NCBI GenBank assembly: GCA_963794155.1
Contig: CAWCCX010000006.1
Location: 2,187-66,186 of the forward strand
DNA: 64,000 bases
Direction: 5' to 3'
From: an uncultured Alphaproteobacteria bacterium
Lineage (GTDB): Bacteria > Pseudomonadota > Alphaproteobacteria > Rhizobiales > Beijerinckiaceae
Translations under genes and position numbers: made by a program
Notes under the pieces: model-generated
Told to the model about the DNA's origin: nothing
Databases searched by the model: none
Seen by the model: only the letters and a program-made list of their open reading frames with translations
Shown: positions 43,096-59,957 of the stretch, in pieces
Layout: each line of letters opens with the position of its first letter
Position numbering within the stretch: the first letter of the stretch is position 1

Positions 43096-43098
43096 TAC

Positions 43099-43884
43099 CT
43101 ATCCCCGAACGAACATCGAACCGCGGCGGTAGCGCTGAACTCCAGCGAAGGATCGGCCGCTTTCCGTGCAAAGCTCACATGCAATCTTGGTCAGCTCACC
43201 GAAATCTTCGACCTCGTGGCCGACCTCGACGACGACGCCCGCGCGGGTTATGCGGCAGCGCAACGTCGCGTTTGGCGCGACAAACCGCGCGAGTCGCATC
43301 TCGACCGCGTCGACGAAGATGAGGTCCGCCGCGTTGATGGCGATTCCAGTTTCTATCCGGCTCGCCAGACATGGCTGAGCCGACAGCTCCGAAATCTCAT
43401 CGAGTCCCTGTCTGCGGGCCAGCATACGGATCGAGGCCTTGCTCATTCCCGCCTCGATGAAGGGATGGACGACGTTGCGTTCCGCGGCGGCCAGCAGCCC
43501 CGGCCGATAATCTTCCAGATCGTCCAGGTTGGCGCCGGAGGCCATAACGTAGGGCGTGAGCTCGCGAATGCGCTCATAGAGGTTCGTCTTGCAAAAATAG
43601 CAGCGATCGGCGGGATTGTCGCGATAGCGGACATCCTCGAACTCGCCGGCGCCCGTGACGGTCAATTTCCAGCCTTCCGCTTTGGCAAGGGCGCGAACGC
43701 GGTCGGTGGCGGACGGCGGCACTGCCGGCGAGACCGCATGAACGACGCACACCTCCACCGCGCCCAGGCGATGAGCGAAGGTCGCCAATGTGATGCTGTC
43801 CACACCGCCGCTCACCGCTACGGACAGTCCCCTGTGGCGGCCGATCGCCGCTGCGAGCCGGCTATCGTCGTCGGCCAGGGTCAT
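43099..43884 (-). CDS. larE: Sulfur insertase LarE
   Basis: PP-loop SGGVDS, NPADRCYFCK, GANLDDLEDYRPG, PCLASRI. Confidence 0.9.
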   Translation of the reverse strand: MTLADDDSRLAAAIGRHRGLSVAVSGGVDSITLATFAHRLGAVEVCVVHAVSPAVPPSATDRVRALAKAEGWKLTVTGAGEFEDVRYRDNPADRCYFCKTNLYERIRELTPYVMASGANLDDLEDYRPGLLAAAERNVVHPFIEAGMSKASIRMLARRQGLDEISELSAQPCLASRIETGIAINAADLIFVDAVEMRLARFVAPNATLRCRITRAGVVVEVGHEVEDFGELTKIACELCTESGRSFAGVQRYRRGSMFVRG

Positions 43885-45140: not shown

Positions 45141-45143
45141 CGC

Positions 45144-46439
45144 TCAGGGGCGCGCATCGACAGGAATGACGTATGGGCCCTCAGGGATCACAGCTACGGA
45201 CGTGTCGTTATGCCGGATGACGCTGTCCGCGACGGCTTGCTCGACCGAAGGAACGATCTCGACGCCGGTGATCCTCCTCTCCTCCGGATCGAGGCCTTCG
45301 GTATAAAGCTGCACGCGACCGATCCGCATCGACTTCAACTGCATCTCCGTCTGCCACTCATCGATATCGGCCAGCGACTTCGCGGTCAGAGTGGCGAGAA
45401 AGCGGTCGGGACCGAGTTCCAAGAGCTTTGTCTGCGCCCGCCGGAATTCCTTCGAGCCGAATCCCTCCGAACATCGCGAGGCGATAATCAAGGTCCCGCC
45501 GGGCGAGAGAATATCAAGCGGCGTCACCATGCCTTTGACAGTCTGATAATAAGTCTTGTCCAGCGGATATCCCGCCGAGGACGTGACGATCGTCTTGAAT
45601 TTGCGCCCGACCTTGATCCGCGTCGCGCTCTCAACGAACTCGACCGCCGCCAGATGACTGGCGATGATCTCACCAAAGGTGACATGCACGAGGCCGCGAT
45701 GCTCGTCGATCACCGTATTGAGCGCATAGATTTCGCCGATCATGCGAACGATTTCGAGCTGTTCCTCATGCAGAGGATTGCCGACCAAGTTGCACTGTAC
45801 GGCCAGCGGATCTTCCATGAAGCGCGCGGAATGAAACGTCCGGATCGTCTCGTGGCCGGCGACGCCGGGGGCGACGACTTTTCGTCCCCCGGACCAGCCA
45901 GCCATGAAGTGCGGCTCGACCAGACCTGTGGCGATCCTGAGGTCGGCTTCGACAAATCGCCTGTTGATCATGACAGGGGTGCCGCGCGTCGGCGTTCTGC
46001 CGAGGTCAATATGATCGTCGCTGTTACGGGCGAAATGGTTCTCCACTCGAACATGCTGGAGCACCCAGGGATCGCCGATGAGTTCGGCCAATTCGCCGCC
46101 CTCGTTCGGACGGTGAAGACCGGTTGCGACCAGCACCGCGATTTGGTCAATTGCTATCCCGCTCTCCAGCATTGTCTCGATCATCGGCCGCAGAAAAAGG
46201 CTATTTGGCACCGGTCGGGTGATGTCACAGACTAGGATGCAGGCGCTGCGGCGCCCTTTGGCCAGGTCGGTCAGCGACTTTGACCCGACCGGAGCCCCGA
46301 ACGCCTGGCGGATCGCGGCCGGGGCGTCGGAAAGCTTCGGCAACTCAGCCTTGCGAACGATCGTCGCCACAGCCCCAGCGGGGAGCCGAATTGGCAGAAC
46401 GCCCCGTCCATACGCGATTTCGATTGGATCGGGTTCCAT
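45144..46439 (-). CDS. larA: Nickel-dependent lactate racemase family protein (LarA homolog)
   Basis: CDITRPVP, ATGLHRP, NHFA, VEPHFMAGWSGGRK, GYPLD..YYQTVKG. Probable ATG at 46439. Confidence 0.9.
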   Translation of the reverse strand: MEPDPIEIAYGRGVLPIRLPAGAVATIVRKAELPKLSDAPAAIRQAFGAPVGSKSLTDLAKGRRSACILVCDITRPVPNSLFLRPMIETMLESGIAIDQIAVLVATGLHRPNEGGELAELIGDPWVLQHVRVENHFARNSDDHIDLGRTPTRGTPVMINRRFVEADLRIATGLVEPHFMAGWSGGRKVVAPGVAGHETIRTFHSARFMEDPLAVQCNLVGNPLHEEQLEIVRMIGEIYALNTVIDEHRGLVHVTFGEIIASHLAAVEFVESATRIKVGRKFKTIVTSSAGYPLDKTYYQTVKGMVTPLDILSPGGTLIIASRCSEGFGSKEFRRAQTKLLELGPDRFLATLTAKSLADIDEWQTEMQLKSMRIGRVQLYTEGLDPEERRITGVEIVPSVEQAVADSVIRHNDTSVAVIPEGPYVIPVDARP

Positions 46440-46717
46440 CGTCCGCTCCCTCGCTCCGCATCCTTTTCCGCTGCGTCCGGCGCGCCGCCGCTCGTCGATC
46501 CCCGCAAATCCGAGTTTAGTCACATCGGCCACTTTTAGGAAGAGTTGTCAGGTCATTGTCGGAATGCCAGGGCCTGGCGCACGCGCGAGAACGGCGAGGG
46601 CTGCAGAAGCCGTCCAATCGGAAGTCTCTCCGGAAGGCATGTCCTGCGACAAGTTCTGGAATCGCGCGGCTTCGGCCTTCGATAATCTCGGCTCTGCGAA
46701 GCCTGGCTTGCAAACCG

Positions 46718-47650
46718 TCAGAACTTTGAATCAATCCAGACCGCCTCGGAGATTTTTCGGGCGGCCAAAGCGTCAGGCGGCGCAGATTGAAGTCTTGCGA
46801 TGCTGTCGAGACGCGTTTCCGGTGGGCCTGCCGCAAGTCGCCAAGCCGCGATAAGCCACTGACTTGGCATTGCGACCGGGGGAATTGGGAGGTCCTGCGG
46901 CGGAACGACAATCAGTTCGTAAGTCAGCCTCTGGCCGCGCCTGTCGACGATCTCAAGCGTCAGGATATCATTGGGGTGAAGATCGCCCGGGCGCAATGGC
47001 AACGTCACGTGAGCGCTGCCGCAAGTGTCCGCCTGAGCAATCGCGTTGCCGTCCTTCCCGCGCAGCATCGCCCGTACGGAATGCGGCTGCAGCGACGGTT
47101 TCCATGCCGCGACGATTTCCGCGAGGTCGGCGCCAATCTGCTGACGCGTCTGGCTCAGTCGATCGAGCGGAACGAGAGATGAAGCCTCCTCATCGGCAGG
47201 CCCGCATTGCTCCAGCCCCCGGCCGGTTGCATAGACCGTCAGTCCGCTCTTGTTAAAGATATTGTGGTAAAGGGAAGCTAGGTAAGACATGGCTCGCGGC
47301 GACACGTCCTCGGAGGCCTGCGGCGCCTGAAACACGGGGTCATAAGACCCGCCAACATGGCGTTTCCCTTTCATCGTTTCTAGAGTCACAACCGCCTCGG
47401 GACCGACCTCGAGACGATCGCCATAACAAATGTGCGTCCCGGACGTCACCGGGACGTCATCATGTTCCCCGGCGTCCTTCAGGTCGCGCGGGAGCGCACG
47501 TTTGAAATGCATCTTCGTCGTATCGCCTTCGACGGAAAGAACGGTGGCGACGACTTGCTCCATCGGGCACGAGATATCGTCCGCGATCGCGCAGTTCGGC
47601 CGAACGACCAGTGCGGCGGCAAGCAGATGGACGGCAAGAACGCCTCTCAT
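46718..47650 (-). CDS. Secreted hypothetical protein, translationally coupled to the CHASE2 gene
   Basis: ATGA overlap with the CHASE2 stop at 47647-47650, signal peptide, FecR-like N-terminal beta region (VATVLSVEG...GDRLEVG). Confidence 0.7.
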   Translation of the reverse strand: MRGVLAVHLLAAALVVRPNCAIADDISCPMEQVVATVLSVEGDTTKMHFKRALPRDLKDAGEHDDVPVTSGTHICYGDRLEVGPEAVVTLETMKGKRHVGGSYDPVFQAPQASEDVSPRAMSYLASLYHNIFNKSGLTVYATGRGLEQCGPADEEASSLVPLDRLSQTRQQIGADLAEIVAAWKPSLQPHSVRAMLRGKDGNAIAQADTCGSAHVTLPLRPGDLHPNDILTLEIVDRRGQRLTYELIVVPPQDLPIPPVAMPSQWLIAAWRLAAGPPETRLDSIARLQSAPPDALAARKISEAVWIDSKF

Positions 47651-49191
47651 GGCGGCGTCGACTCCGTCACCTTGCCGGTCGAGGGTCCCGGCTGCCGCGA
47701 CGCTTCTGGATGGGGCGGAAACCACCGCGTCAGAAGCCCCTCTACGGCTTGTTCCGTACCGTCCGCGACGGCGGAGCATATTTCGATCAGAAGCACAACG
47801 ATCGTGCCAACGACGAAAGAAAGAATGCCGAAGCGCCAGCCATGCAAGACGTTCCAGCGATGCGACAGCCACCATGAAACGGAGGCGAAGATAAGTCCGC
47901 AAACCAAGATGACGAATGCCTCGAAAAACACCCGCTGCAGGCGTCGCCGCATGGGCAACCGCGCGCCCTGGGCCACCGACTTGAATGTCGGAAGCCAACA
48001 AAGGGGAATGGTCACCAATGCAGCGACGAGGATGAAAAACACGTCCAGCCCGAACTGAGCCGCGAGCTGAAGGTCATCGTTTGAGGACTGAAGGCTCAGC
48101 GCCAAATTGACATGGGCGAGCGCGCCCTGGAGATCGCCGAGCGGCGTCAACAACGTATCTTCCGACCATGGCGCGGTGGCGCCGATCACGACGATGGCGT
48201 CTTTCAAGACGCCAAGGTCCATGTTCGGAGAATCGATCAGGCTCTTGTATTTGACCAGCGAACTCGCCTTAATCCGCGCATAGGCCAGTTTCTTGACGCC
48301 GCCGGTGTCGCCCGATCCTTCTTTTCCGCCGCTGTCATACTTTTGGTCCGTTTCATTCCCGATCGTCCAGCGAATGGGAACGATATCCGGACGATCAAGG
48401 TCCGGCGTCTTGATGCACGACTCCCCCGCGCAGGAAGATCCGGCGTTCGCCAGCTCGACCGCCCGCACCATCGCCGCTTGCCGCGAGACGATCTCTTCGC
48501 CCGGCCCAAATCGAACGCGGTAGGCCGAGCAGGCCCCCTCGGGCAGCCCATAGGCGCCGAGCGTGAGCACCGGATGAACAAGAGCAACCGAGGGCAGCGC
48601 CTTCTCGCTTGCGGATTGCCCCGCCTTCGTCAAGTCGCTGAACGCGGTCTCCAGTTCCGTCGGAGGGATTCGATCGTTTTGATCGTCGCAGGGCGGAAGC
48701 CGGCCCGCGGTGAAGAAAGTCGGAATGAGAACCGGGGTCTTGCTTTGCGTCGCGAGTTCGTCATGGAGGTCGGGGTCATCGGGCAGACGATTGCGAAAGT
48801 CGAAATCGAGGTAGACGACGGCCGCGGAGGCCGATCTCGCAAGCTCCGTCAGTTTAGCAATCAGGCCTCGCGGTGTGTTGTTTCGCAGTGATTCCTGCGA
48901 GGCGGGAGATTGCGGATCGTCGTTCGGCGCGACGCTCCATTTCCTGGCGGCGTTGTCGTCGATGTCGATGAAAACGACTCGATGGGCGTTCGATAGCAGA
49001 TGGATTTCTGGCGAATGGAAGCTATCGTAGACATAGTCCTCGGCGGCGACGAGCTCCTGGAGCGGGCCAAAATCGAGCATCCTGAGAAGGTATGTGAACC
49101 CGAGGACGATCACCGCGACGACCAAGCCCGCCATGGCCGTGCCGGCGGCGCGGGCGATTGCAGATGGCGGGGCGTTCATCCTGACGTTCAT
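47647..49191 (-). CDS. CHASE2-domain membrane protein without output domain
   Basis: N-terminal TM, VVFIDID, VYLDFDF, KDAIVVIGATA..EDTLLTPLG, GALAHVN, then three TM helices and a short tail. Confidence 0.85.
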   Translation of the reverse strand: MNVRMNAPPSAIARAAGTAMAGLVVAVIVLGFTYLLRMLDFGPLQELVAAEDYVYDSFHSPEIHLLSNAHRVVFIDIDDNAARKWSVAPNDDPQSPASQESLRNNTPRGLIAKLTELARSASAAVVYLDFDFRNRLPDDPDLHDELATQSKTPVLIPTFFTAGRLPPCDDQNDRIPPTELETAFSDLTKAGQSASEKALPSVALVHPVLTLGAYGLPEGACSAYRVRFGPGEEIVSRQAAMVRAVELANAGSSCAGESCIKTPDLDRPDIVPIRWTIGNETDQKYDSGGKEGSGDTGGVKKLAYARIKASSLVKYKSLIDSPNMDLGVLKDAIVVIGATAPWSEDTLLTPLGDLQGALAHVNLALSLQSSNDDLQLAAQFGLDVFFILVAALVTIPLCWLPTFKSVAQGARLPMRRRLQRVFFEAFVILVCGLIFASVSWWLSHRWNVLHGWRFGILSFVVGTIVVLLIEICSAVADGTEQAVEGLLTRWFPPHPEASRQPGPSTGKVTESTPP

Positions 49192-49295
49192 GAGCGGCCC
49201 CGAGCGTCCTCATCGATCGCCGGACACGCATTGGCTGCAATGCCGATCCGCTACCGCTCTGCTGTCTGGACCACGAACCAGGAAGAGGGATCGGC

Positions 49296-50528
49296 CTAAA
49301 GCTGATCGGTCGCCCGTCCGTACATCGAGGGGTCGTCCTTCGCGCCATCGGCGGTGAAAATGACGCGTAGCGGCAGCGGGTCCTGAGGCTTGATCTTGTT
49401 GTCCGGTCCGATCAATTGCGCCTCGACCCACTTGATGCATTGCTGCTTGGTGACGTCAGCTACGCCTTTGCTGATTTCCGCCGAACTCGCCATGCCCGAC
49501 TCGGTCGAGCTGATCGCCTCGATGTTGTCGGACAGGCAATCGTAGATGATGCGCTGTGCGCGGTACCGCAGGGCGAAAGCGTTGGGATCGCGCCGCAAGT
49601 ACGGCTCCAGCTGAGCCACCCCGGCGCCGGAAGCCTCCGACAGCAATTGCTCGGCGCTCTCGCGAACTTCGCCGTTCACGAGATCGCCATGGGTCTGATA
49701 GAGACGCTGCACGAACAAGGTCGAGCTTCGATTCGCCGCCAGCAATTCCGACGTCTCGAACAGCCGCGCGTAGACGTTGGCCGCCGCCTTTTTGATGATC
49801 AGGTCGATGTCGTTCATCGTCACCTCGCCGCGGTTGGTGCCGTCGAAGAGGCTGCCGATTTCATTCTGGACGCGAGCGAGAATCATGACCCGCAGACGCT
49901 CGGGCGACCAGTTCTCGCCAAGGAACGTCTCGAACTTGACCAGATTGGCTTCCCGGATCGAGGTCTCCAGCGCCTCGAGGATCGCGTGCTCCGTGACGTC
50001 GCCTTCTTTGGTCGAGTGCTGAGCGTTCTGGGCCTGCTGGATGCGCTTGATCAGGTCGTCGATCCGGCTCGTGTAATCGCGATTGGCTTCGGCGTTGTCG
50101 TCCCTGCCGATCTGTTGGAGATCGTCCGAGGCGCCGACGGCGCCAAGCGATTGACTGGGCGTGACGGATTTCAGGATCGCCTGTTCTTCCTGGGTGGTCG
50201 GCGGCGCGAGCGAGGCAAGCGCGCGGGACGACTCCTCCGGCGAAGGCGGCGCTCCGTTGCCAGCCGGGCGCGAACGACTGTACGCCGCACCGCCCGAGGA
50301 CGGATGATAGGCGGGCGGAGGTCGATGGCTATAGCCGCCGCCGCTGTGAAGGCGTTGCTGCAGGAGCATGTTGCCAACCATCCCGCCCACCATGCCTCCG
50401 ACAAATCCTCGGAGAAAGGCGTCGTTTGCATATGCCGGTGATTGGTCGAAAGCCGCGAGTGCAACGGCGGCGCTCGCCGCCAAAAGTATGCCAGAAGTCG
50501 CGTGGCGCTTCACTGACTCGACGCTCAT
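49296..50528 (-). CDS. Secreted hypothetical protein with glycine-zipper-like segment
   Basis: Signal peptide, GFVGGMVGGMVGNML, Pro/Ser/Gly linker, helical body. Confidence 0.7.
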   Translation of the reverse strand: MSVESVKRHATSGILLAASAAVALAAFDQSPAYANDAFLRGFVGGMVGGMVGNMLLQQRLHSGGGYSHRPPPAYHPSSGGAAYSRSRPAGNGAPPSPEESSRALASLAPPTTQEEQAILKSVTPSQSLGAVGASDDLQQIGRDDNAEANRDYTSRIDDLIKRIQQAQNAQHSTKEGDVTEHAILEALETSIREANLVKFETFLGENWSPERLRVMILARVQNEIGSLFDGTNRGEVTMNDIDLIIKKAAANVYARLFETSELLAANRSSTLFVQRLYQTHGDLVNGEVRESAEQLLSEASGAGVAQLEPYLRRDPNAFALRYRAQRIIYDCLSDNIEAISSTESGMASSAEISKGVADVTKQQCIKWVEAQLIGPDNKIKPQDPLPLRVIFTADGAKDDPSMYGRATDQL

Positions 50529-50589
50529 GGAATTCTCCCGATGATGCGGTTCAGTCCAATTCACACTATAGAGCCGATCTCCGGCATGT

Positions 50590-53308
50590 TCAACGCCGGG
50601 GCTGACGGGTCGACTGGGCGTTCGTTTCGGCTTGCGCCGCAATGATTTGCTGATTGATCAAGTCGGCGAAGGGCACTTTCTCCTTTCGCGCCGCCTCGAA
50701 CGTCGCTGACAGCGTTCGGCGCAAAACATCGTTATCGTAGCAGCGGGTCTCGCGCTCGAGGCTGCGGAACTGAGGCTCGGTAGGCGATTCCGCCCGCCCC
50801 CAGTCCCACACCCAGACCGGCTTCTTATATGGGTAGTTGCAATTCCAGAGCGGAACCTCGAGCCGGCGAATCTTCACCTTGTGGGTCTCGGGGTCGACTG
50901 TCCCGTAAAAGCGCTGCAGCCGGTCGATTTCGTCGGGAGTGAGCAAAGCCCGATCGTTCAGGTCGACCGCCTGGCCGTTGACGGCCATTTCCGCGAGCAG
51001 GATGCCTGCGCCAATCTCGTAGAACGGATTGCCGTCCGCCTTGGTCGGGTCGGCCTGAACCGACAGCTTGATCGCGAGAAAAGCATATTTCATCGCCATC
51101 AGAGGGTCTTTAGGCTGATCGAGTTCGCCGTTGCGGTAGATGTCGGCAAGCATATTGGCCGCCCGGGCCGAACCGTGGCTCAGCGCCCTGTTGAGCAGAT
51201 CGATGGCTTCGTTTGCGCCGTTCTCCGGCTTGACCAGCATGCGGCCGGCCAGAAGCCTGCGCGCGAGTTCGATCTCCGCTTCCTCGTCGCCGCCATGCGC
51301 GGCGAGCCGGTAGTAACGTTCCGCGATCTCCGGCTGCGGGCTCGGCAGGCCCCAGCCATGCTCCATCATCAGGGCCATGTTATATTGCGCGGCCGGATTG
51401 TTGTCGGCGGCCGCGCGCCCCCACCACAGCAACGCTTGGGTATCGTCCGATAGTACGCTGCTCGAGGCGATCTCGCCGGCGGAATTGTAGACCCGGTAGC
51501 CGCTGAAATAATAGAAGCCGAGATTAAGCTTGGCGGCGTCCGAGCCCGAATTCCGCCGCCCGCTGGGCCCATTCGACCCCGCGATGCGGATTTGGAGCCA
51601 CGCCGTGGCCATAGAAGAGCGCATCGGCGGTCTCGACCATCGCCGGAACCGATCCGCTTTCCGCTGCTTTCGAAAACCATCGATACGCCTCGGATAGGTC
51701 ACGCTGCAGCCCGAACGAGCCGCTGCTGTAGCGCTGCCCGAGTTCATACATCGCCGGCGGAAACTCCTGAATGGCCGCCTTGAGAAGAAGCGCATTGTCG
51801 CGCCCCTGCTCCTCCTCGCTCGCGTCGGAGTAAGCGGAGAGCGTAGCCAGACTGAAGAGCGCGGCCACATAGCCGCGATTGGCGGCGTCGTTGTAGGCGG
51901 CGCGCGCGTCGACGATGAGCGGTTTGCGCGTGGGATCATCGAGCCGGAGCGCGTTGGCCGCGGCGAACTTGGCCCGGCCCAGATTGAAAAGATACCTGAC
52001 GATGCGCGGATTGCGCTCGATTGATTTCCCGCACGCTACGGTCGCGGCGTCGAAGTCAATCTTGTCGAGCGTGACCCCCGAGACCTCGGGCGGCCGAGAG
52101 GGGTCGCTCTCGGAGGCGGCGAGCCGGTCGCAATCGTCAATCTGCTTGGGGGTGCCGGATACGGTCGGGGCCACGACCTCGGACGAGCCGATGAGACTCA
52201 CGAGCACGCGGCGGGCGAGCTCTGCGGTGGGACAATCGTGGAAACGCCGGCGATGCCTCTCCAGCGCTTCGCGGTCGGGTTGCTGGCTGATCTCCGCCCA
52301 ATCCACGTCGGCGCCCGCACATTGCTGCTGCGTCAGCTGGAAGCGTTCGGCGCCGACCGGATCGACGAGAGCGAAATTGTCGCTGACGCCGAGATTCTCG
52401 AAATATTGCGGCTCCTGCTGCCGCCCGCCGGCCAGCGCGAAAGCCTGGACCATACGAATGACGCGCTGGCCGAGTTCGATCAGGGTCTGCCCCGGCCGTT
52501 GCAGCTCCGACCGGACAACCTCGGTGAACAGCGAATTGCGTCGATGATCCCCGTATCCGAAGCTCTCGATCGCGGTTTCGCCGAAGGAAGCCGAGAAGAC
52601 GACCATCGAGCCCGCCGGCACATCCTTCGGTTGCAAGAGACGGCTGCCGGAAGTGAGGCCGCGCTTGATTTCCCGCTCGTCCGTCGTCGCGCGGATGAGC
52701 GAGCGGCAAGCGTCAAGAAGGAGAATGGCGACCTTCGGCTTCTTGTCCGCGATCGCGTTCATCACATCGCTGACGGAAATGCCGTTCTTGGCGATTTCGT
52801 CAGTCTCGTAGGCCCCTTCGAACGACGGCATCTTGAGCGAGATGATGTCGTCCCGGCGCTTATCCGCTTCGATCACCTGGTCGCGGGTATATGTCCGCAG
52901 GCTCTTTATGTCGCCGAGCAGCAGATAATCGGTGTCGTTCGCTTCGACGCCGAGGCCATGGCCGGAATAGAAGAACAGAACGACGTCGCCTTCCTTCACG
53001 GTGGCGAGGAACGCCTGGAATCGCTTGTCGAAATCGCTCTTGCCGCGCAGTTCCGTCGCCAGCGTAATGTTCTTCTTGTCGAAGCCGACCTGCTCGAGGT
53101 CGGCGGCGAGATCGCTTGCGTCGTTGTCGGACCGTGTGAGGCTTGGAATATCCTGGTCGGAATAGCGCTGTTCGCCGACGAGAAACGCGCGCCGCGTCTG
53201 CGCGCTCGCAGCGTCGACGCCGAGACAGCCGATCGCGACGATCGCGATTCCGAAGAGGGCTGCGCTTGCCCTCACCAACGACGCTCGTTTCATGCCACGC
53301 CTCATCAA
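50590..53308 (-). CDS. Exported caspase-family (C14) peptidase + Sel1/TPR repeats, +1 frameshift at 51545-51547
   Basis: Signal peptide (probable ATG 53293), FFYSGHG and LDACR dyad. Sel1 repeats (AMYELG, WFSKAAESG, AQYNMA, YYRLAA) continue across the frameshift. Confidence 0.87.
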
Positions 53309-53341
53309 GTTAAAGTCTCGCGTTGACCGTTTGGGTCACGA

Positions 53342-55339
53342 TTAGGGTGCCAAGTCCCGCGCGACGCGAAACCCGACCCTCTCCGACCCCTCGTCGACGC
53401 TCTCATAATCGCGCGCGGCGGCGCGGAGTTTGGCCGGTTCATCCGCCCACGAGCCGCCGCGCGTCGCGCGCGCCGTGCAATCGCCGGAAAGAACCGGGGC
53501 GCCATTCGAGGCGACTGCAGCCGGGGTCGGGTTCCAGCAATCCTCGGTCCATTGCCGCACATTCCCGAGCATGTTGTAAAGCCCGAACGGATTGGCCGGT
53601 CCGTTGTCGACGGGCTCGGTCTTGAGCCGAGGGTCGGCTTTCGGGCTCCCGTCATAGGAACGCCGCGAATCGTAGACCGCGAGCTCGGGCTTGATGGCGC
53701 CGAACCAGAACGGCGCGTAGGCGCATTTCAGGCTGTTACAGCCTCGCGCGGCGTATTCCCACTCCCCTTCGCTCAGCAGGCGATAAGGCTGGCCGGTCTT
53801 GCCTTTGAGCCATTGCACATAGAGTTGCGCGTCGCTCCAGGTTGCGAAGATCGCCGGACGCTTGCCGCGACCGAAGTCGAGGTCGCCGAGCCGGCGGCGC
53901 CCGCAGGCGCCCTCCGCGTAGCAGGCGTCCCATTGAGCAAATGTCACTGCGTACCGACCCACAGCGAAGGGCTTGGCGATCTCGACCAGGTGCGGCCCGG
54001 CTTCAAACTTTTGGCGTCCGCTTTCGCCGAGCGGCGAGCCCAGCATCGCCTTGCCGGCGGGCACGACGACCATTTCAGGACATTCGTCGCATTCCCTGAA
54101 GACCTCGCCGCCCGGATCGTTCACCGCTACCTTCGGCGGGGGGCCGACGAGAACGGCCGCCGCAGTCGATTTGGCGGCGGGCGACCCGGGCGGCGCTTCG
54201 GACGGGGCCGCAGGTGAAGGCGTCGCGGATGGCGGAAGTGCGACGCTCGGCGGCGGGATGACGATTGCGGTTTGGGTGGTCGCCTTCAAAGCCTCCGCGC
54301 GCGCCTTCGCTCGCTCCCTGAGCGGCCCATCCGGCAGCTTGGGGATGAGCGCCGCGAGCAGGTCCGCATTCGTCGTCGCGTCGATCATCGCGTCGAGAGC
54401 TTCATCCGGCGGGGCCGAGTCCATCGGCCGCGCGGAGGCGGTCAAGGCGCCGGCCGTCAAATTCGCCGTCTGCGTTGTTCTCAATGCCCCCGCCCGCGCC
54501 TCGCACGTGGCCGAGAGACAGGCCTCGCCCAACACCTCGTCATAGTAGGCCGGGGTCTGATCATGGTCGGCGGCGGCCGCCAATGCGTGCGTCTTGGCCT
54601 GGCTGGCCTTGATCGCGTCGCGCAGCGGCAGGTCGGCGCTGAGCAGCGGCAGGAATGTGCGGGTGAAAACGCTGTTGGGATCGGAATCCGCATCGGACAG
54701 CCGATCCATCGCGGACTGACCTTCACCGGCGGAATAGATGATGAAACTGCCTTCGACCGATTGCGGCTTCAAGCCGCGCGCCAGAGCGTAGCCTCTCTCG
54801 CCGGGCGGCGGCCGAAACGGGCTGTCGCGGCACGCGTCGATGATCGCCGCCTTCAGGCCTGCGTTCTTGCGTTCGAGGTCGTCGAGCACGCCGTCGACGC
54901 CGTTGCGCAGCGGCAGCGAAAGCCGCGTCAGAAGCTCCTCGGTGGCGCGCCCAGGCACGTCGACGCCGACGAGATAATTGTGCGCGCCATCGCTCCAACC
55001 ATGGCCGGAATAGACGAACACGGCCGTGTCGCCGGGATTGATCTTTTGGACGAAATCCGCGACCGCGCTGGACATCTCGAGCATCGAGAGGTCGTAGCCC
55101 TCCTGCACCGAGAATCCCTTCCCGCGCAGAACCGCCGCGTAAGCGGTCGCGTCGGCCTTGGCCTTTTGCAGCTTGTCGATGTGTTGATAGTCGTCGTTGC
55201 CGATGACGAGCGCGACGCGGCGGCCGGCGGTTTGCGGCGCCGCCGGACCCGAAAGCGCCAGAGCAAGCGCTATCAGCGCGAGGCCCGCCCACGGCCGCCG
55301 CGCGCTCGGCCGCTCTCCCGCAGCGTCCGGGCGTCGCAT
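53342..55339 (-). CDS. Exported caspase-family peptidase + Pro-rich linker + FGE/SUMF1-like domain
   Basis: Signal peptide, RRVALVIGNDDY, YSGHG, IDACRD; CPEMVVVPAG, NPFGLYNMLGNVRQW, RGGSW, GFRVAR. Confidence 0.9.
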   Translation of the reverse strand: MRRPDAAGERPSARRPWAGLALIALALALSGPAAPQTAGRRVALVIGNDDYQHIDKLQKAKADATAYAAVLRGKGFSVQEGYDLSMLEMSSAVADFVQKINPGDTAVFVYSGHGWSDGAHNYLVGVDVPGRATEELLTRLSLPLRNGVDGVLDDLERKNAGLKAAIIDACRDSPFRPPPGERGYALARGLKPQSVEGSFIIYSAGEGQSAMDRLSDADSDPNSVFTRTFLPLLSADLPLRDAIKASQAKTHALAAAADHDQTPAYYDEVLGEACLSATCEARAGALRTTQTANLTAGALTASARPMDSAPPDEALDAMIDATTNADLLAALIPKLPDGPLRERAKARAEALKATTQTAIVIPPPSVALPPSATPSPAAPSEAPPGSPAAKSTAAAVLVGPPPKVAVNDPGGEVFRECDECPEMVVVPAGKAMLGSPLGESGRQKFEAGPHLVEIAKPFAVGRYAVTFAQWDACYAEGACGRRRLGDLDFGRGKRPAIFATWSDAQLYVQWLKGKTGQPYRLLSEGEWEYAARGCNSLKCAYAPFWFGAIKPELAVYDSRRSYDGSPKADPRLKTEPVDNGPANPFGLYNMLGNVRQWTEDCWNPTPAAVASNGAPVLSGDCTARATRGGSWADEPAKLRAAARDYESVDEGSERVGFRVARDLAP

Positions 55340-55614
55340 TGCGCCGCGCCGGTCATGGCGGCGGGTCAGAGCCCATCGAGCAACCTTGCCGATGAATCTC
55401 ATGGCCGGGGTCACCTCTTTCAGTCCCGCATCGCTTCGCCCCTCCCGAACCGACCCATTAAGACCAGAGGACGACCATAGTCCACTGAAAAAGGATGTGT
55501 CATGTCGACGAAAGGAGCATATGGACCTGGCCGCCCGTATTCGTCGGCTCGCAATTCGCCGCTTTCGCGGAATGACAAAGCAGGAGCGCGGCTCATCGCG
55601 TGAGCCCAAATGGG

Positions 55615-57321
55615 CTATTGACGTTTGTTTGTGAACACCCCGACAAAGCCGACGCGGGCCGTGGGGTCCGTCTTCATGGCGCTTGTCAGAAGCTCCGGAA
55701 CGAGCGCCGCGTCGCGCTTGTCATGGTGTTCGCGCAGCCACCCCAACAGATCATCCGCTGGACCCGAGGCGGCCAGCGCCACGATCGTGTCGGCGCCGAA
55801 AGGCGGCGTAACGCCGAGGGAGCAATGCCATTCGCCGTTTTCCGGGTTCGGACAATGCGCGGTCACTCCAGGCGCGCTAGGGTAGAGCATCTGCACGGTC
55901 GCGTCCGCGGCGACGTTGAAGACGACCAAGCGCTGATCAGCGATCTCGTCGATCTCGACTCGCGCCTGGTCGCCGGAGGTCAACAATTGGCCTTCGGTCG
56001 CGAGTCGCATGGGAAGGTTGCGATTTTCCGCGATCTCGCGCAATCGCTTCACCACCCATGTCCGGTCGATGACGCCGCCGATCAGAGAACCGTCGACGAA
56101 CTCCATCACAAGATCGCCTCGAGACAGAGCCTCGCTCTTGGCGACGTCCCAGACGAGATCGGCGCCATCGACCGTCGGCGATCTCGCGAAGGGCGCATTC
56201 CCCTTCTCAATCGTCCCCCATCGGTCCTCCGCTCCATCGATCATTGCGACGCTGACCGCGTCAGCTCGCGCGTCGATCGCCTCCTGCCGAGGCGTATCGA
56301 CCGGCGAGAACCCGCGTACTTTCGGCGGCGCGGGCGAGGCCAAGGCGCTGGCAAATGTCAAAACCGGCTTGCCGTATACGGAAGGATCCGGGCTCTGCGG
56401 CTCGACCTGAATCAATTGGCGATCCTGGGTCGCGTGCCGGACGTTGGGCTTCAAATAATCGTAGAGCGCTTGGCGCGTAACGACCCCGTCCTTGGCCGAA
56501 TCTCCGCGAAGAGCGCGAGCGAGAAAATAGCTGAGCGCCCCCCGCGGCGCTCCGGGCACAAGGCCATCGGTTTCCGGAACGACCGATTTGCTTGTCGCGC
56601 CAGCCAGAAAGGTGACATGGGGCATCAAGGCTACGCTGGCCCGCGCTTCCTTGTCGGTCATGGGAATGCCAACAAATTGCTCGCGCCCGCTTTCCCCGGC
56701 TCGGATCTCATCGGCGCTGGCGCGCAAAACCCGCGTCCGCATCGCGCGTGTGCGGGGATCGACCTCTCGCATGCCGCCGCCGAAACACAAATCCACGATG
56801 ACGAGCGCATCGACGCCCTTCGCGTCAAGCCGCGACAGCCACGCCCGCATTTCCGGATTCACGATGATTTCGCCGGCGCCCGCGCCGCTATAGTTGAATG
56901 CAGAGAGCACGATCTGCTCGTTGACGCCGTTGGCATCGATGCCTTGCCAATGCGGGTATTCCGGAATCTGCATGCCGTGTCCGGCGAATGCGAAGAGAAC
57001 GAGGTCCCCGGGCCTCGAATCGGAGACGAAGGAATCCATCTGCGCCACGATCTTCGCCCGCGTCGCGTCAGCGTCGAGCAGGACGACAGGCTTAACGCCG
57101 TCCTGACTGAGCGCCGCGGCAATGTCCTCAGCGTCCGCCCGCGCGCCCTGCAACTGCCATTCTGGATCTAATCTCGAATAGACGTCGACGCCGACAACGA
57201 GCGCCCGGATCGTCCCGCCGCCCGGCGCCCGCAAGTCACCCGCCGAAACCGCGCCGACCTGTGCAAGCGTCGCGGCGGCTGTCGCCCCCGCGGCAGTCAG
57301 GAAAAGCATCAATTTGCGCAT
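55615..57321 (-). CDS. Exported caspase-family peptidase + C-terminal DUF4384-like domain
   Basis: GGGAG RBS, signal peptide, RALVVGVDVY, FAGHG, VDLCFGGG; C-terminal FNVAADATVQMLYP...VTPPFGADTIVA. Confidence 0.85.
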   Translation of the reverse strand: MRKLMLFLTAAGATAAATLAQVGAVSAGDLRAPGGGTIRALVVGVDVYSRLDPEWQLQGARADAEDIAAALSQDGVKPVVLLDADATRAKIVAQMDSFVSDSRPGDLVLFAFAGHGMQIPEYPHWQGIDANGVNEQIVLSAFNYSGAGAGEIIVNPEMRAWLSRLDAKGVDALVIVDLCFGGGMREVDPRTRAMRTRVLRASADEIRAGESGREQFVGIPMTDKEARASVALMPHVTFLAGATSKSVVPETDGLVPGAPRGALSYFLARALRGDSAKDGVVTRQALYDYLKPNVRHATQDRQLIQVEPQSPDPSVYGKPVLTFASALASPAPPKVRGFSPVDTPRQEAIDARADAVSVAMIDGAEDRWGTIEKGNAPFARSPTVDGADLVWDVAKSEALSRGDLVMEFVDGSLIGGVIDRTWVVKRLREIAENRNLPMRLATEGQLLTSGDQARVEIDEIADQRLVVFNVAADATVQMLYPSAPGVTAHCPNPENGEWHCSLGVTPPFGADTIVALAASGPADDLLGWLREHHDKRDAALVPELLTSAMKTDPTARVGFVGVFTNKRQ

Positions 57322-57350
57322 GCTCCCTTCCTGTCGCAAGCCGAAGACCA

Positions 57351-57839
57351 TCAATCCGGCGCGCCCTTGCGAAGCTGCTCGACCCGGCGGTCTAACTCCT
57401 TACGCTCTTCTTGCGACGCGGGCGGCGCAGCCCGGGAGAGAAGGGAAATGGCGGTCTCGTAGGCGTTGAGCGCCTCCTGGGATTCGCCGCGGCGGCCGTA
57501 ATAATCGCCCAGCCTTTCCGCCGATCGCCAGTCGCCGCCGATCTCAATGATTCCTTCGACGAATTCGATCATCTGCTTTTGCGCGTCTCCCGGCGGAGCC
57601 GTGTCGGCCATATCAATAACCGAATTGATCTCCCGGATGCGATAGGCGTCGATGTCGAAATTGCACACGTTGTCGTCCGCGATCGCCGCCATCGCATCTT
57701 TCAATTTCTCGAACGCCTTGTCATGGATGGCGCTTTTGAAACCGGCGATGAGCGCGCCGCAATCGGCCGCCGCGGCTGAACCCGTCAAGGCGAGGCAGGC
57801 GGCGAGCGAGGTGAGCCATCGGCTCGATCCCGCGAACAT
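57351..57839 (-). CDS. Secreted helical (TPR-like) hypothetical protein
   Basis: Signal peptide ...GSAAA/ADC, Cys pair, WRSAERLGDYY..RGESQEALNAYETAI. Confidence 0.65.
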   Translation of the reverse strand: MFAGSSRWLTSLAACLALTGSAAAADCGALIAGFKSAIHDKAFEKLKDAMAAIADDNVCNFDIDAYRIREINSVIDMADTAPPGDAQKQMIEFVEGIIEIGGDWRSAERLGDYYGRRGESQEALNAYETAISLLSRAAPPASQEERKELDRRVEQLRKGAPD

Positions 57840-58072
57840 CCTCCGGGCCTCCCCAAATTGAACCGCGGCGCTCAGTCTGAGTCTGCAGCCTGTCTGGCGA
57901 TCGAGGCCGTAGAAACCGCCTTCTCGCTCGGCGGCCGACGGAGCAGTCTTACGAGATACGATCGGCATCGTTGCCGAGACAACATAAGAATGTGAGATTT
58001 TTGCGAACGCATCTTGGGGATTTTCCCAAGCCGATCCGCCTCGCGGTCATCTGCGGGAGGCAAGACCAGGCG

Positions 58073-59380
58073 TCAATCCGACACGCGCACGGTAAAGGCG
58101 GAGTTGAGGTCGGAGGGCTGCACATTCAAGTTTCGCAGTTCTTGCAGGATGTCAAATAGAACCGCGGTCTTCTCCGCGTCCGCTGGAACGCACCAAGAGC
58201 GCCCCTCAAAGACAGCCGAAGCCAGACAACCTGGCCCGCTTCCTTCGACAATGTCGATGAGCGGTCCTTTCAGTTGGTTCGCGGCGTCGCTGAGAAACGG
58301 CACGTCATCGGTCGTGCCCCACGCTTCACCGACATATTCGAAAACGCCAAGCGGCGATCGAAGCTTGATGAACTCCAGCGTCACCTTCCCATACGGCTCG
58401 AACACGGAAGAGAATTTCACCGACCTTGTCGGAGGTTTTGACCCGCGGGCGCTCGATGGTCCCGCCGCCGCCGAAGAGCCGCCGGAGGCCTTCGCCAAGA
58501 TCGCGTCGCATCTGAGCTGCGGCGAACCGGTGGTGAAGCGTGAACTTCCAAGCGTGGGGTCGAAACACAATTTGCCGCCCGACTCGGGGATCTTGCTTGG
58601 GCTCTGCTGAGTGTTGGACGACGTTGGAGTGTTGACGGTGTTCGTGCCCGGGCTGGGTGCGGCGCCTGCGCTTGAACTCGGAACCAACTCCGCCGTAAAT
58701 CCATAGTCATCGTAGAGCTGCAACCATCGGACAAATTTTGCATAGTTGCAGTTGTCGGGATTTTCAAACATTTCTTCTACAGACCAAGAGGAATTGGTGT
58801 CCCGCAATTTGTCCTCGCAAGTATAATCATAATTTTTGGCCTTTCCCAATACGTCCGAGTCGCTATGATCGTTGTCGTGGGGATGATTCCTGAACAGGGC
58901 AATGCGACCATTATGTGAGACAGTAATGCTATCAATCACCGCATGGTACACTATCTCTCGCGGATGCGATCCGATAAGCAGCGCGAGATCCTTGAAGCTC
59001 ACCGGGAAGAGCATCCCCTCCTGAAAGCTTGTCGTGATTATGGGGTTGGCCTGGTAGCTAGAAGTAACGGTGCTGCTTAGAGAATTGGTTATCGCATAGG
59101 TCTGTTGGAGGGCGGTTTGGTGGGGTCCGAAAGTGACGGTCGGTAGACCTGTCGACAGCGCTTCAGCCTGCCCTCCGGCAATTTGCGATATGGCGACAAA
59201 CGTTGGCGATTGATGCTTGGAGATCCGAAGTACATTCAACAATGTTTCTTGATTCGAGGCGTCATGCGAGTTGACATTGCCATCATATATTCTTGAACCA
59301 AACTGATCGACGCTCGCGCAGGATCCCAGCACAATACCCAGGAAAAGTAAGGAAATTCGAGCGACGGACAGTCCCGTCAT
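58073..59380 (-). CDS. Putative lipoprotein, hypothetical
   Basis: Lipobox LGS/C after hydrophobic segment, long closed ORF, visibly more AT-rich than its neighbours. Confidence 0.75.
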   Translation of the reverse strand: MTGLSVARISLLFLGIVLGSCASVDQFGSRIYDGNVNSHDASNQETLLNVLRISKHQSPTFVAISQIAGGQAEALSTGLPTVTFGPHQTALQQTYAITNSLSSTVTSSYQANPIITTSFQEGMLFPVSFKDLALLIGSHPREIVYHAVIDSITVSHNGRIALFRNHPHDNDHSDSDVLGKAKNYDYTCEDKLRDTNSSWSVEEMFENPDNCNYAKFVRWLQLYDDYGFTAELVPSSSAGAAPSPGTNTVNTPTSSNTQQSPSKIPESGGKLCFDPTLGSSRFTTGSPQLRCDAILAKASGGSSAAAGPSSARGSKPPTRSVKFSSVFEPYGKVTLEFIKLRSPLGVFEYVGEAWGTTDDVPFLSDAANQLKGPLIDIVEGSGPGCLASAVFEGRSWCVPADAEKTAVLFDILQELRNLNVQPSDLNSAFTVRVSD

Positions 59381-59411
59381 TAACCAACCCCAGCATTCAT
59401 TGCTTTTTTTG

Positions 59412-59440
59412 GTTAAATTGATATGTCCGTAGCTTGTCAA
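59412..59440 (-). promoter_or_regulatory. Candidate sigma70-type promoter for the lipoprotein/caspase operon
   Basis: On the minus strand TTGACA (59440-59435), 17-nt spacer, TTTAAC (59417-59412). Confidence 0.35.
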
Positions 59441-59466
59441 CCGAGCAACCGTGGGAGGCGCTCCAA

Positions 59467-59817
59467 ATGCGTGGACAAATCAAAGCCGCAACTCGCGCGA
59501 TCGCGGCGCCATCTCGCGCTCAGCAAGTCATTCTGGCGCTCGCCTTAGTCAGCGTCCAGGTTGGCTCAGGCGCGATCGAGCAAGTCCAAGCCGGGGCCCT
59601 GAGCCCCGAACAGGATGCCGGATCAAGGATCATCGTAACGGCTCAGATTTACGCCGGAGATCCAAGTATTCCGGTACGTATTCGAGAATTGCCCGGTCCC
59701 AAGACAAATGCGACGGTAAAGCCGGACCCTGGCAATCCCGCTCCCACCAAGGAACTGGCGCCTCCTCCGTCAACCACCGAAAACACGCCGCCGCCTGCGG
59801 CCGATAAACCGCAATAA
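59467..59817 (+). CDS. Small exported Pro-rich hypothetical protein, divergent from the caspase operon
   Basis: Hydrophobic signal-like segment, Pro-rich tail; GGGAGG upstream. Confidence 0.5.
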   Translation: MRGQIKAATRAIAAPSRAQQVILALALVSVQVGSGAIEQVQAGALSPEQDAGSRIIVTAQIYAGDPSIPVRIRELPGPKTNATVKPDPGNPAPTKELAPPPSTTENTPPPAADKPQ

Positions 59818-59957
59818 AAGAGTGCCAACTCATACGTTTTCTACGGCGACTCTATTACTACTATAAATATTCCAGGCTTGAAATCCGACTATATTAGCCG
59901 CAGCGCGCTCTATTGTTATAACCGACGCACGCCGAGATCAAGCGGCCTTGGCCACAA

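What the first reader, a model, noticed from the sequence alone, without database searches (positions are those of the whole stretch)
46718..59380. Candidate novel system: an exported triple-caspase operon with a CHASE2 sensor
Eight co-oriented genes all encode signal-peptide, lipoprotein or membrane proteins: lipoprotein, TPR-like protein, caspase-DUF4384-like, caspase-FGE-like, caspase-Sel1, glycine-zipper protein, CHASE2, and a coupled secreted partner. All three C14 domains keep the His-Gly and Asp-x-Cys dyad (AGHG/DLC, SGHG/DAC, SGHG/DAC), and each has a different binding module. Characterised bacterial caspase-like systems (gasdermin activation, CHAT/Craspase, cyanobacterial orthocaspases) are largely cytoplasmic. 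Three exported ones in tandem suggest a periplasmic or surface proteolytic cascade for sensing, defence or cell-cell interaction. I know no description of this arrangement, but could not run a search.
Basis: partly seen in the sequence, partly recalled or inferred. Interest (0 to 1): 0.85.

Follow-up and report, generated by a model that had tools for sequence, protein, structure and literature searches.

The report
Exported caspase gene cluster, CHASE2 accessory
A soil alphaproteobacterium carries a conserved cluster of exported caspase-like proteases, and in related bacteria one caspase module is replaced by a membrane-spanning TIR immune domain, so the cluster is probably an undescribed defence-type system that watches the cell envelope.

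Summary
Eight co-oriented minus-strand genes at 46718-59380 all start with signal-peptide, lipobox or membrane segments. Three carry Peptidase_C14 domains with intact His/Cys dyads.

Across 34 Hyphomicrobiales species, g6 (Gly-zipper protein) sits beside g5 (exported caspase-Sel1-DUF2610) in 33. In 30, g4 also lies alongside: a periplasmic PvdO-like, non-catalytic FGE-fold domain carrying a swappable N-terminal module.

That module is an exported caspase in 16 species; two unrelated caspase cassettes exist, and the window holds the rare one. In 13 species it is a cytoplasmic TIR joined through one transmembrane helix. Six TIR loci also have a SLATT-like membrane protein next to them.

- g1, the lipoprotein, has no homologue in any related locus.
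- CHASE2 (no output domain) and its coupled partner g8 are accessory. They are intact in 3 species (a fourth is cut by a contig end), reduced to remnants in two, absent at the same site in a relative, and twice paired with exported CHAT proteases.
- The caspase-Sel1 frameshift at 51549 is an assembly error.

Most likely this is a defence-type system monitoring the periplasm. The mechanism is inferred; nothing was tested experimentally. No description of it was found.

The parts
57351..57839 (-). g2: small secreted helical (TPR-like) protein. In relatives it is fused to a C-terminal OmpA-type peptidoglycan-binding domain, of which the window keeps only about the last 30 aa.
   Evidence: Signal peptide MFAGSSRWLTSLAACLALTGSAAAA. 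TPR_2 is weak. It is 70% identical to the N-terminal part of the OmpA-domain ORF in L001, L015 and L017. The OmpA tail remnant is at 57449-57354.
55615..57321 (-). g3: exported caspase-like protease (Peptidase_C14, AGHG/DLC) with a C-terminal beta-rich region that weakly matches DUF4384.
   Evidence: Pfam. Signal peptide and a good Shine-Dalgarno sequence at 57321. Orthologues are 59-80% identical with the His/Cys dyad kept.
53342..55339 (-). g4: exported caspase (about 55222-54542), Pro/Ala-rich linker, then a PvdO-like FGE-fold domain (about 54085-53357). The caspase cassette differs from the one in close relatives.
   Evidence: Pfam. Best PDB match is PvdO 5HHA at 1.3e-40, and the two catalytic Cys of FGE are absent. 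The caspase domain is 25-39% identical to orthologues that are 67-97% identical to each other, while the FGE domain is about 90% identical. In 13 species a TIR plus TM helix replaces the caspase.
50590..53305 (-). g5: exported caspase (SGHG/DAC), Sel1 repeats and a DUF2610-like C-terminal domain; 904 aa after removing the spurious base at 51549. It lies next to g6 in 33 of 34 species.
   Evidence: Pfam on both halves. Frameshift shown to be an assembly error. Intact orthologues of 899-903 aa. It sits next to g6 in 33 of 34 species loci, with the dyad kept down to 47% identity.
49296..50528 (-). g6: exported protein with an N-terminal glycine zipper, a disordered Pro/Ser/Gly linker and a highly conserved helical domain of about 310 aa containing two conserved Cys. 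It is the marker gene used to collect the related loci.
   Evidence: No Pfam or NCBIfam match. 449 clusters. Alignment A2. 34 species loci. The AF2 model has low confidence, a helical C-terminal domain and a disordered N-terminal 150 aa, and has no fold match.
47647..49191 (-). g7: CHASE2 membrane protein (TM1, periplasmic CHASE2 domain, three TMs, roughly 35-aa tail) with no cytoplasmic output domain. It belongs to the accessory module.
   Evidence: Pfam CHASE2 48 bits against a 26.3-bit cut-off. TM segments 10-42, 374-406, 417-444 and 448-479. All 52 homologue clusters carry only PF05226. Present in a minority of loci, with remnants in L017 and L021.
46718..47650 (-). g8: secreted partner of g7, translationally coupled by an ATGA overlap. 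It has two beta-sandwich domains and a three-helix C-terminus and belongs to an orphan family.
   Evidence: Start at 47650. 61 clusters. 75 representatives among 1.84 billion proteins. AF2 pLDDT 73 with only generic Ig-like fold matches. It follows a CHASE2 gene in every locus where its upstream flank was read.

Best explanation
The locus is the all-periplasmic, caspase-armed form of a modular envelope-surveillance (conflict or defence-type) system of Hyphomicrobiales.

Shown:
- The g5-g6 pair (exported caspase-Sel1-DUF2610 and Gly-zipper/helical protein) is adjacent in 33 of 34 species, and g4 lies beside it in 30.
- g4's periplasmic PvdO-like FGE-fold domain lacks the FGE catalytic cysteines.
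- g4's N-terminal module is interchangeable. It is either an exported caspase (two unrelated cassettes) or a cytoplasmic TIR joined through one transmembrane helix.
- TIR versions often have a SLATT-like membrane protein beside them. Some caspase versions have a TIR-STAND-TPR gene beside them.

Inferred:
- The lectin-fold domain, the Sel1 repeats and the beta-sandwich tail of g3 bind a periplasmic ligand. That ligand could be invader-derived or a damaged envelope or peptidoglycan component.
- Binding brings the caspase domains together and activates them, as proximity does for other caspase-fold enzymes.
- The active proteases then cut a target after basic residues. The best candidate substrate is g6. 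Its long disordered linker separates a membrane-inserting glycine zipper from a conserved domain, so cleavage could free a membrane-active fragment or disrupt envelope function.
- In TIR versions the same periplasmic event is passed across the membrane to a TIR NADase or signal generator and a SLATT-like pore.
- g2 (OmpA-linked in relatives) and g3 are clade-specific additions that tie the system to peptidoglycan.
- CHASE2 and g8 form a separate, dispensable membrane module. It associates with exported caspase-fold proteases in general (C14 here, CHAT elsewhere). It most likely works as a receptor or regulator whose output is proteolysis, or as a protease substrate, rather than through a second messenger.
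For: Export and topology:
- Signal peptides or TM segments on all the proteins, conserved in orthologues.
- In 13 of 13 TIR-FGE proteins, exactly one TM helix lies between TIR and FGE. No TM lies between caspase and FGE. This puts the FGE domain in the periplasm.
- The FGE domain's best match is periplasmic PvdO, and it is rich in cysteines.
- The weak NCBIfam matches of the Sel1 region are to proteins I know as periplasmic (MerG, MotX, AlgK, ExoR).

Conservation:
- Synteny table over 50 loci; 34 species.
- Dyads kept in every orthologue.

Effector swapping:
- Caspase cassettes A and B.
- TIR_2 at 1e-19 to 1e-26.
- The catalytic Glu of TIR aligns with SPARTA TIR E77.

Defence-type neighbours:
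- A DUF4231/SLATT-like protein lies next to 6 TIR-type loci.
- A TIR-STAND-TPR gene lies next to 3 caspase-type loci.
- The CHASE2-g8-CHAT set in L012 is flanked by integrases.

Published precedent:
- TIR with a caspase-like protease is Thoeris type IV, and TIR with SLATT is Thoeris type VII (bioRxiv 10.64898/2025.12.03.692087).
- The effector-N-terminal-to-FGS rule (PMC7159879).

Accessory status of g7-g8. Exported CHAT partners.

Peat metatranscriptome contigs at 85-95% identity lie on g3-g8.
Against: - No experiment of any kind supports this. Substrates, ligands and activation are all inferred.
- PADLOC recognises no known defence system.
- The window version has no TIR, no SLATT and no NTPase, and it does not sit in an obvious defence island. 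It is flanked by Lar cofactor genes and a monooxygenase-like gene.
- g5 and g6 are very conserved (70-96% identity among the closest, Roseiarcus-like loci). In the Roseiarcus clade the locus keeps a fixed chromosomal position. That pattern fits a housekeeping function better than an arms race.
- The FGE-like domain is not hypervariable (53-91% identity), unlike DGR-linked FGS sensors.
- The SLATT assignment is marginal: Pfam is just above threshold and NCBIfam is below its cut-off.
- The CHAT link rests on two loci.
- Co-transcription is not shown.
Confidence: 0.5

Rival explanations
1. This is a housekeeping periplasmic protease module. The exported caspase-like enzymes, tethered near peptidoglycan and the outer membrane (OmpA-linked g2, Sel1 repeats, Gly-zipper g6), process or turn over envelope proteins. 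Alternatively they mature a secreted product, with the PvdO-like domain acting as a periplasmic enzyme or chaperone. There would be no role in conflict.
For: g5 and g6 are highly conserved. The locus keeps a fixed chromosomal position in the Roseiarcus clade. The closest relative of the FGE domain is PvdO, a periplasmic maturation factor. No known defence system is recognised. The window's flanking genes are metabolic.
Against: In 13 species the same gene position carries a cytoplasmic TIR with the catalytic Glu kept, often with a SLATT-like neighbour. This is hard to reconcile with housekeeping maturation. Effector cassettes are exchanged between close relatives. Accessory genes are gained and lost. 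The PvdO match is far below the equivalog cut-off, 170 bits against 500.
Confidence: 0.25
2. All eight genes form one operon in which the CHASE2 protein senses a signal and triggers a sequential cascade of the three exported caspases.
For: The genes are co-oriented with short gaps, and g7-g8 are coupled by an ATGA overlap. CHASE2-g8 recurs next to caspase-fold proteases.
Against: g1 is not conserved with the rest. CHASE2-g8 is missing from most loci that keep the caspases, is convergent in several, and has decayed to remnants in two. The third caspase, g3, is absent from many loci. CHASE2 has no output domain. No evidence bears on the order of cleavage.
Confidence: 0.1
3. This is a self-directed programmed cell death or cell-cell (kin or social) interaction system, in which the exported caspases act on the producer's own envelope, or on neighbouring cells, during development or stress.
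For: Orthocaspases have long been discussed in the context of programmed cell death (PMC3501461, PMC5756287). The proteins are exported and have protein- or glycan-binding modules. CHASE2 receptors in rhizobia respond to an external protein signal (PMC13001267).
Against: There are no toxin-immunity or secretion-system genes in the locus. TIR and SLATT partners elsewhere point to abortive-infection-type logic. Nothing is known about development in these organisms.
Confidence: 0.1
4. The genes are unrelated exported proteins that happen to be neighbours, and there is no system.
For: No co-transcription data.
Against: g5 lies next to g6 in 33 of 34 species and g4 joins them in 30. The longer g2-g6 block recurs too. 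g7-g8 stays adjacent even after inversion.
Confidence: 0.03

Closest known systems
Thoeris type IV (TIR plus caspase-like protease ThsE) and type VII (TIR plus SLATT effector ThsH)
   Same: Loci homologous to this one combine a TIR domain with the catalytic Glu kept, caspase-like proteases and a SLATT-like membrane protein. Those are the parts list of these Thoeris types.
   Different: The window itself has no TIR or SLATT. Here the caspases carry signal peptides, so they could not bind a cytoplasmic nucleotide signal. The TIR is anchored in the membrane with a periplasmic FGE-fold domain. The g5-g6 pair has no Thoeris counterpart. PADLOC ThsB models give only weak partial hits.
FGS (FGE-sulfatase-fold) effector fusions in prokaryotic conflict systems (Kaur, Burroughs, Iyer and Aravind, 2020 and 2021)
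   Same: The syntax is the same: a variable effector (TIR or caspase) always lies N-terminal to the FGS domain. The authors read FGS as a lectin-fold sensor of invaders.
   Different: The published systems are intracellular, tied to STAND or vWA-MoxR NTPases, and often diversified by retroelements. Here the domain is periplasmic, PvdO-like and conserved rather than hypervariable, and it has no NTPase in the core.
Prokaryotic orthocaspases and metacaspases with FGE-sulfatase, Sel1 or DUF4384 tails; multi-caspase operons
   Same: The domain architectures match. Probable signal peptides, operons with up to three caspases, and OmpA neighbours were catalogued in 2012 (PMC3501461). Trypsin-DUF4384 pseudo-orthocaspases are known in alphaproteobacteria (PMC6426788).
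   Different: Those are survey listings. None was characterised as a periplasmic system, and neither the g5-g6 pair nor the TIR-for-caspase exchange was noted.
CHASE2 receptors (for example the S. meliloti cyclases CyaD1, CyaD2 and CyaK)
   Same: The periplasmic CHASE2 domain and the 1+3 TM layout are the same. The rhizobial ones respond to a protein signal.
   Different: There is no cyclase, kinase or GGDEF output. Instead there is a coupled secreted partner, g8, and neighbouring exported caspase-fold proteases.
Bacterial gasdermin with caspase-like protease operons (from my own knowledge)
   Same: The proposed logic is a caspase-fold protease paired with a membrane-active partner that cleavage could release.
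   Different: No gasdermin domain was found in any of the eight proteins. Those systems are cytoplasmic. The resemblance is functional speculation only.
PvdO (Pseudomonas pyoverdine maturation; PDB 5HHA)
   Same: It is the closest solved relative of the g4 C-terminal domain (1.3e-40). Both lack the FGE catalytic cysteines and both are periplasmic.
   Different: The NCBIfam PvdO score is 170 bits against a 500-bit cut-off. There are no pyoverdine genes here, and the domain is fused to a protease or a TIR.

Membership tests
Peptidase C14 (caspase / orthocaspase) | Match to the family profile above the curated threshold | tested here: met
   g3 48 bits, g4 86 bits and g5 68 bits, against a 21.4-bit cut-off.
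Peptidase C14 (caspase / orthocaspase) | Catalytic His (in H-G) and Cys (in D-x-C) dyad | tested here: met
   AGHG/DLC, SGHG/DAC and SGHG/DAC, conserved in every orthologue.
Peptidase C14 (caspase / orthocaspase) | Proteolytic activity and P1 specificity | not testable with these tools
   Requires an enzyme assay.
Formylglycine-generating enzyme (FGE) | FGE-sulfatase fold or profile | tested here: met
   PF03781, 144.6 bits.
Formylglycine-generating enzyme (FGE) | Pair of catalytic (copper-binding) cysteines | tested here: not met
   g4 reads RGGSWADEPA where S. coelicolor FGE reads RGGSYLCHDSYCNR. It is therefore not an FGE enzyme.
PvdO (dihydropyoverdine dehydrogenase equivalog) | NCBIfam equivalog score | tested here: not met
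   169.8 bits against a 500-bit cut-off.
CHASE2 transmembrane receptor | [quoted passage not shown] | tested here: met
   PF05226, 48.1 bits against 26.3; TM segments listed.
CHASE2 transmembrane receptor | Cytoplasmic output domain (cyclase, kinase or GGDEF) | tested here: not met
   A tail of roughly 35 aa follows the last TM helix. All 52 homologue clusters carry only PF05226.
Thoeris (TIR signalling defence) | A TIR-domain gene in the locus | tested here: not met
   There is none in the window. A TIR occupies the g4 position in 13 homologous loci.
Thoeris (TIR signalling defence) | An effector with a cytoplasmic signal-binding domain | tested here: inconclusive
   The SLATT-like neighbour of TIR-type loci matches DUF4231 marginally and SLATT_1 below its cut-off. 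The caspases are exported.
Any defence system catalogued in PADLOC | Match to the system's protein models | tested here: not met
   Only a generic caspase model gives partial hits.
Gasdermin-protease system | A gasdermin gene next to the protease | tested here: not met
   No gasdermin family hit in any of the eight proteins.
   g1 is absent from all 50 related loci. g7-g8 and g2-g3 are variable.
   No internal terminator rises above chance. No RNA run of this strain was available. Metatranscriptome contigs from relatives cover g3-g8 but span no gene junction.

The most novel reading that the evidence does not exclude
A bacterial immune system senses trouble in the periplasm. An exported caspase-Sel1 protease and its Gly-zipper partner form a near-constant pair. 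They work with a periplasmic lectin-fold receptor whose effector is swappable. One effector is a TIR domain on the other side of the membrane, which gives a Toll-like-receptor topology in bacteria and feeds a SLATT pore. The other is an exported caspase that acts within the envelope. In addition, output-less CHASE2 proteins with their g8 partner would be a new class of receptor whose output is an exported caspase-fold protease (C14 or CHAT) rather than a second messenger.
Probability: 0.3. Interest if true: 0.85.

Novelty: new variant of a known kind. Interest (0 to 1): 0.62.

Why it matters
To my knowledge, characterised bacterial TIR and caspase-type defences detect invaders inside the cytoplasm. 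A conserved system with its sensing domains and proteases in the periplasm would mean infection or attack is detected at the envelope, before or during entry. Its TIR variant spans the membrane as an animal Toll-like receptor does. That would add a new site of innate sensing in bacteria.

It would also give a first functional context to the many exported orthocaspases and to stand-alone CHASE2 proteins. Two cultured carriers of the TIR form, Bosea sp. 117 and Siculibacillus lacustris SA-279, make the idea testable.

Tried and rejected
- g8 as a FecR-like protein, my first guess from the sequence pattern. There is no Pfam hit, and the AF2 model matches only generic Ig/FN3-like sandwiches. Dropped.
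- Fold of g6. The AF2 model has pLDDT 55 and Foldseek found nothing below E = 1. No assignment.
- Plasmid origin. No megablast match in PLSDB.
- Wider family of g7 and g8. Genome scans with the single proteins and with alignments returned only the same four or five MAGs. Two metagenome scans with divergent g8 alignments failed because no stretch was conserved enough. A look-up of the divergent CHASE2 P0106 ended at contig ends.
- Promoter and terminator scan. No signal above chance.
- RNA evidence for this strain. No run was listed. Only contigs from related strains were found.
- g5 as a pseudogene. Rejected, because the frameshift is an assembly error.
- Source of the window's g4 caspase cassette. 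There is no other caspase in the window, and the cassette is only about 26-32% identical to g3 and g5. The donor is unknown.
- g5 caspase domain against PDB sequences. No hit at E 0.01.

Full report
**1. What is in the window**

Eight genes lie on the minus strand between 46718 and 59380. I refined the gene models from start-codon context and N-terminal hydrophobicity.

| Gene | Coordinates | Product |
|---|---|---|
| g1 | 59380-58073 | lipoprotein, lipobox LGSC |
| g2 | 57839-57351 | small secreted helical protein |
| g3 | 57321-55615 | exported caspase with beta-rich tail |
| g4 | 55339-53342 | exported caspase, linker, FGE-fold domain |
| g5 | 53305-50590 | exported caspase, Sel1 repeats, DUF2610 |
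| g6 | 50528-49296 | Gly-zipper protein |
| g7 | 49191-47647 | CHASE2 membrane protein |
| g8 | 47650-46718 | secreted partner of g7 |

- Pfam confirms Peptidase_C14 in g3, g4 and g5. It also confirms FGE-sulfatase in g4, Sel1 and a C-terminal DUF2610 in g5, and CHASE2 in g7.
- DUF4384 in g3 and TPR in g2 score below threshold. g1, g6 and g8 match nothing.
- g8 starts in an ATGA overlap with the g7 stop.

**2. The caspase-Sel1 gene is intact in nature**

In the window, g5 is broken by a frameshift near 51549. Contigs from all four soil metagenome runs that carry this sequence lack one base there. Removing it gives one 904-aa ORF. Orthologues are single ORFs of 899-903 aa. The break is an assembly error.

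**3. Which genes belong together**

I gathered 50 related loci using g7, g8 and g6 as queries. I compared them with the window's proteins and domains by tblastn. The carriers are mostly uncultured peat and soil Hyphomicrobiales: Roseiarcus, Methylovirgula, Beijerinckiaceae, Alsobacter and Xanthobacteraceae. Two are cultured, Bosea sp. 117 and Siculibacillus lacustris.

Among the 34 species-level loci (my tally):
- g5 lies next to g6 in 33.
- A protein with the g4-type FGE domain lies just upstream in 30.
- g2 (fused to an OmpA-type domain) and g3 precede them in about ten, sometimes with two trypsin/DUF4384 genes in between.
- g7-g8 is intact and adjacent in three, and a fourth locus is cut by a contig end just after g7 starts.
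- g1 has no homologue in any locus.

g7-g8 sits either after g6 in the same orientation or convergent to it. In a 2.66-Mb contig the block g2-g6 lies at the same chromosomal site as in relatives that have g7-g8, flanked by DUF1236, HpcH and DctPQM genes. In that contig, g6 is followed directly by DUF1236. Two other species keep only 83-aa and 50-aa remnants of g7 after g6.

So g5-g6, usually with g4, is the core; g2-g3 is a clade-specific extension; g7-g8 is a dispensable accessory pair.

**4. The g4 position is a swappable effector on a periplasmic domain**

- The C-terminal domain of g4 is closest to periplasmic PvdO (PDB 5HHA, 1.3e-40). It lacks the two catalytic cysteines of FGE and scores far below the PvdO equivalog cut-off.
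- Its caspase domain is only 25-39% identical to that of close relatives. Those relatives are 67-97% identical to one another. The FGE domain is about 90% identical throughout. The break falls in the linker. This is a cassette exchange.
- In 13 species the same position holds a TIR_2 domain instead of a caspase.
- All 13 have exactly one strong TM helix between TIR and FGE. No caspase-FGE protein has a TM helix there; each has only an N-terminal signal-type segment. One locus encodes caspase, TIR, TM and FGE in a single ORF.
- The Bosea TIR aligns with SPARTA TIR-APAZ so that its KKEI Glu matches E77. From memory, E77 is the catalytic residue. The motif recurs in most of the TIR versions.

This fixes the FGE-fold domain in the periplasm and marks the N-terminal module as the variable effector.

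**5. Neighbours point to conflict systems**

- In six TIR-type loci, a protein of about 640-660 aa lies beside the core. It carries a DUF4231 (SLATT-clan, from memory) 2-TM region. NCBIfam SLATT_1 hits are below cut-off. No caspase-type locus has it.
- In three caspase-type loci, a TIR-STAND-TPR protein follows g6.
- A recent preprint defines Thoeris type IV as TIR plus a caspase-like protease and type VII as TIR plus a SLATT effector.
- The Aravind group described FGS domains as sensors with effectors always fused on the N-terminal side.
- PADLOC recognises no known system here.

**6. The CHASE2-g8 pair**

- All 52 homologue clusters of g7 carry only a CHASE2 domain.
- g8 belongs to an orphan family: 61 clusters, and 75 representatives among 1.84 billion proteins.
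- Its signal peptide and cysteines are conserved. The model shows two beta-sandwich domains and a helical tail, with no specific fold match.
- Outside the caspase cluster, the pair occurs next to a convergent TPR-CHAT protein. It also occurs next to a PG_binding_1-CHAT protein flanked by integrases. Both CHAT proteins have signal peptides.
- The pair therefore tracks exported caspase-fold proteases in general. This rests on few loci.

**7. Expression and operon structure**

- Promoter and terminator scans are uninformative.
- No RNA run of this strain was available.
- Peat metatranscriptome contigs at 85-95% identity lie on g3-g8 and none on g1-g2. This is weak evidence that relatives transcribe these genes.

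**8. Interpretation**

The best reading is a modular envelope-surveillance system of the conflict or defence type, and the window holds its all-periplasmic, caspase-armed form. The steps from ligand binding to proximity activation to cleavage of g6 or another target are inference.

The main rival is a housekeeping envelope protease module. The high conservation of g5 and g6 and the stable chromosomal position favour it. The TIR and SLATT-like variants and the cassette swaps argue against it.

**9. Novelty**

- The single-protein architectures, probable signal peptides, multi-caspase operons and OmpA neighbours were listed in surveys.
- In the searched literature I found no description of three things. 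These are the g5-g6 pair with a swappable effector-FGE gene, the TIR-TM-periplasmic-FGE topology, and the link between CHASE2-g8 and exported proteases.
- I rate it a new variant of a known kind.

Noticed in passing
window 51549 (within g5): One extra base in the window splits the caspase-Sel1 gene. Contigs from four of four metagenome runs lack it, so the window comes from an assembly with at least one indel error. Other apparent frameshifts in this window should be treated with the same suspicion.
   Followed up: yes
window 54470-55339 (g4 caspase domain): The caspase cassette of g4 is unrelated (25-39% identity) to the one in close relatives, although the downstream FGE-fold domain is about 90% identical. 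This looks like a recent recombinational replacement, with the breakpoint in the Pro/Ala linker. The donor is unknown and is not in the window.
   Followed up: partly
window 57351-57449 (end of g2): g2 keeps only about the last 30 aa of the OmpA-type peptidoglycan-binding domain that is fused to it in relatives (L001, L015, L017). This looks like an in-frame internal deletion.
   Followed up: partly
window 58073-59380 (g1) and 58001-60000: The lipoprotein g1 has no family match and no homologue in any of 50 related loci. It sits in a stretch of lower G+C (0.55 against about 0.63). It is possibly a recent acquisition unrelated to the caspase cluster.
   Followed up: partly
window 42439-46532: Directly downstream on the same strand lies what looks like a LarA-LarC-LarE-LarB set, the lactate racemase and nickel-pincer cofactor genes. 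LarA is confirmed by Pfam in the identical Logan contig. The other three were identified from the translations only.
   Followed up: no
L017 11407-11655; L021 11188-11337: Short in-frame remnants of the CHASE2 gene (83 aa and 50 aa) remain after g6 in two species that have lost the rest of g7 and all of g8. This indicates repeated loss of the pair.
   Followed up: yes
L043 3832-6741: A single 969-aa ORF combines Peptidase_C14, a truncated TIR_2, one TM helix and the FGE-fold domain. It is either a true double-effector fusion with a cytoplasmic caspase, or two genes merged by a long-read assembly error.
   Followed up: no
L012 3450-14163: The CHASE2-g8-(PG_binding_1-CHAT) trio is bracketed by two tyrosine-integrase genes. 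This suggests that this version rides on a mobile element.
   Followed up: no
L035 13104-14969: In Alsobacter sp., a TrkA_N plus RyR-domain protein follows the SLATT-like gene. It may be a further component of the TIR-type version.
   Followed up: no
L039, L040, L042 (about 4700-6800): Three Methylovirgula-like loci have g5-g6 without any FGE-domain gene. A flavin amine oxidase and a bestrophin-like channel gene lie upstream instead.
   Followed up: no
L030 6137-7093: The palsa_929 MAG has a second, solitary copy of g6 with no g5 beside it, in addition to its full locus (L028).
   Followed up: no
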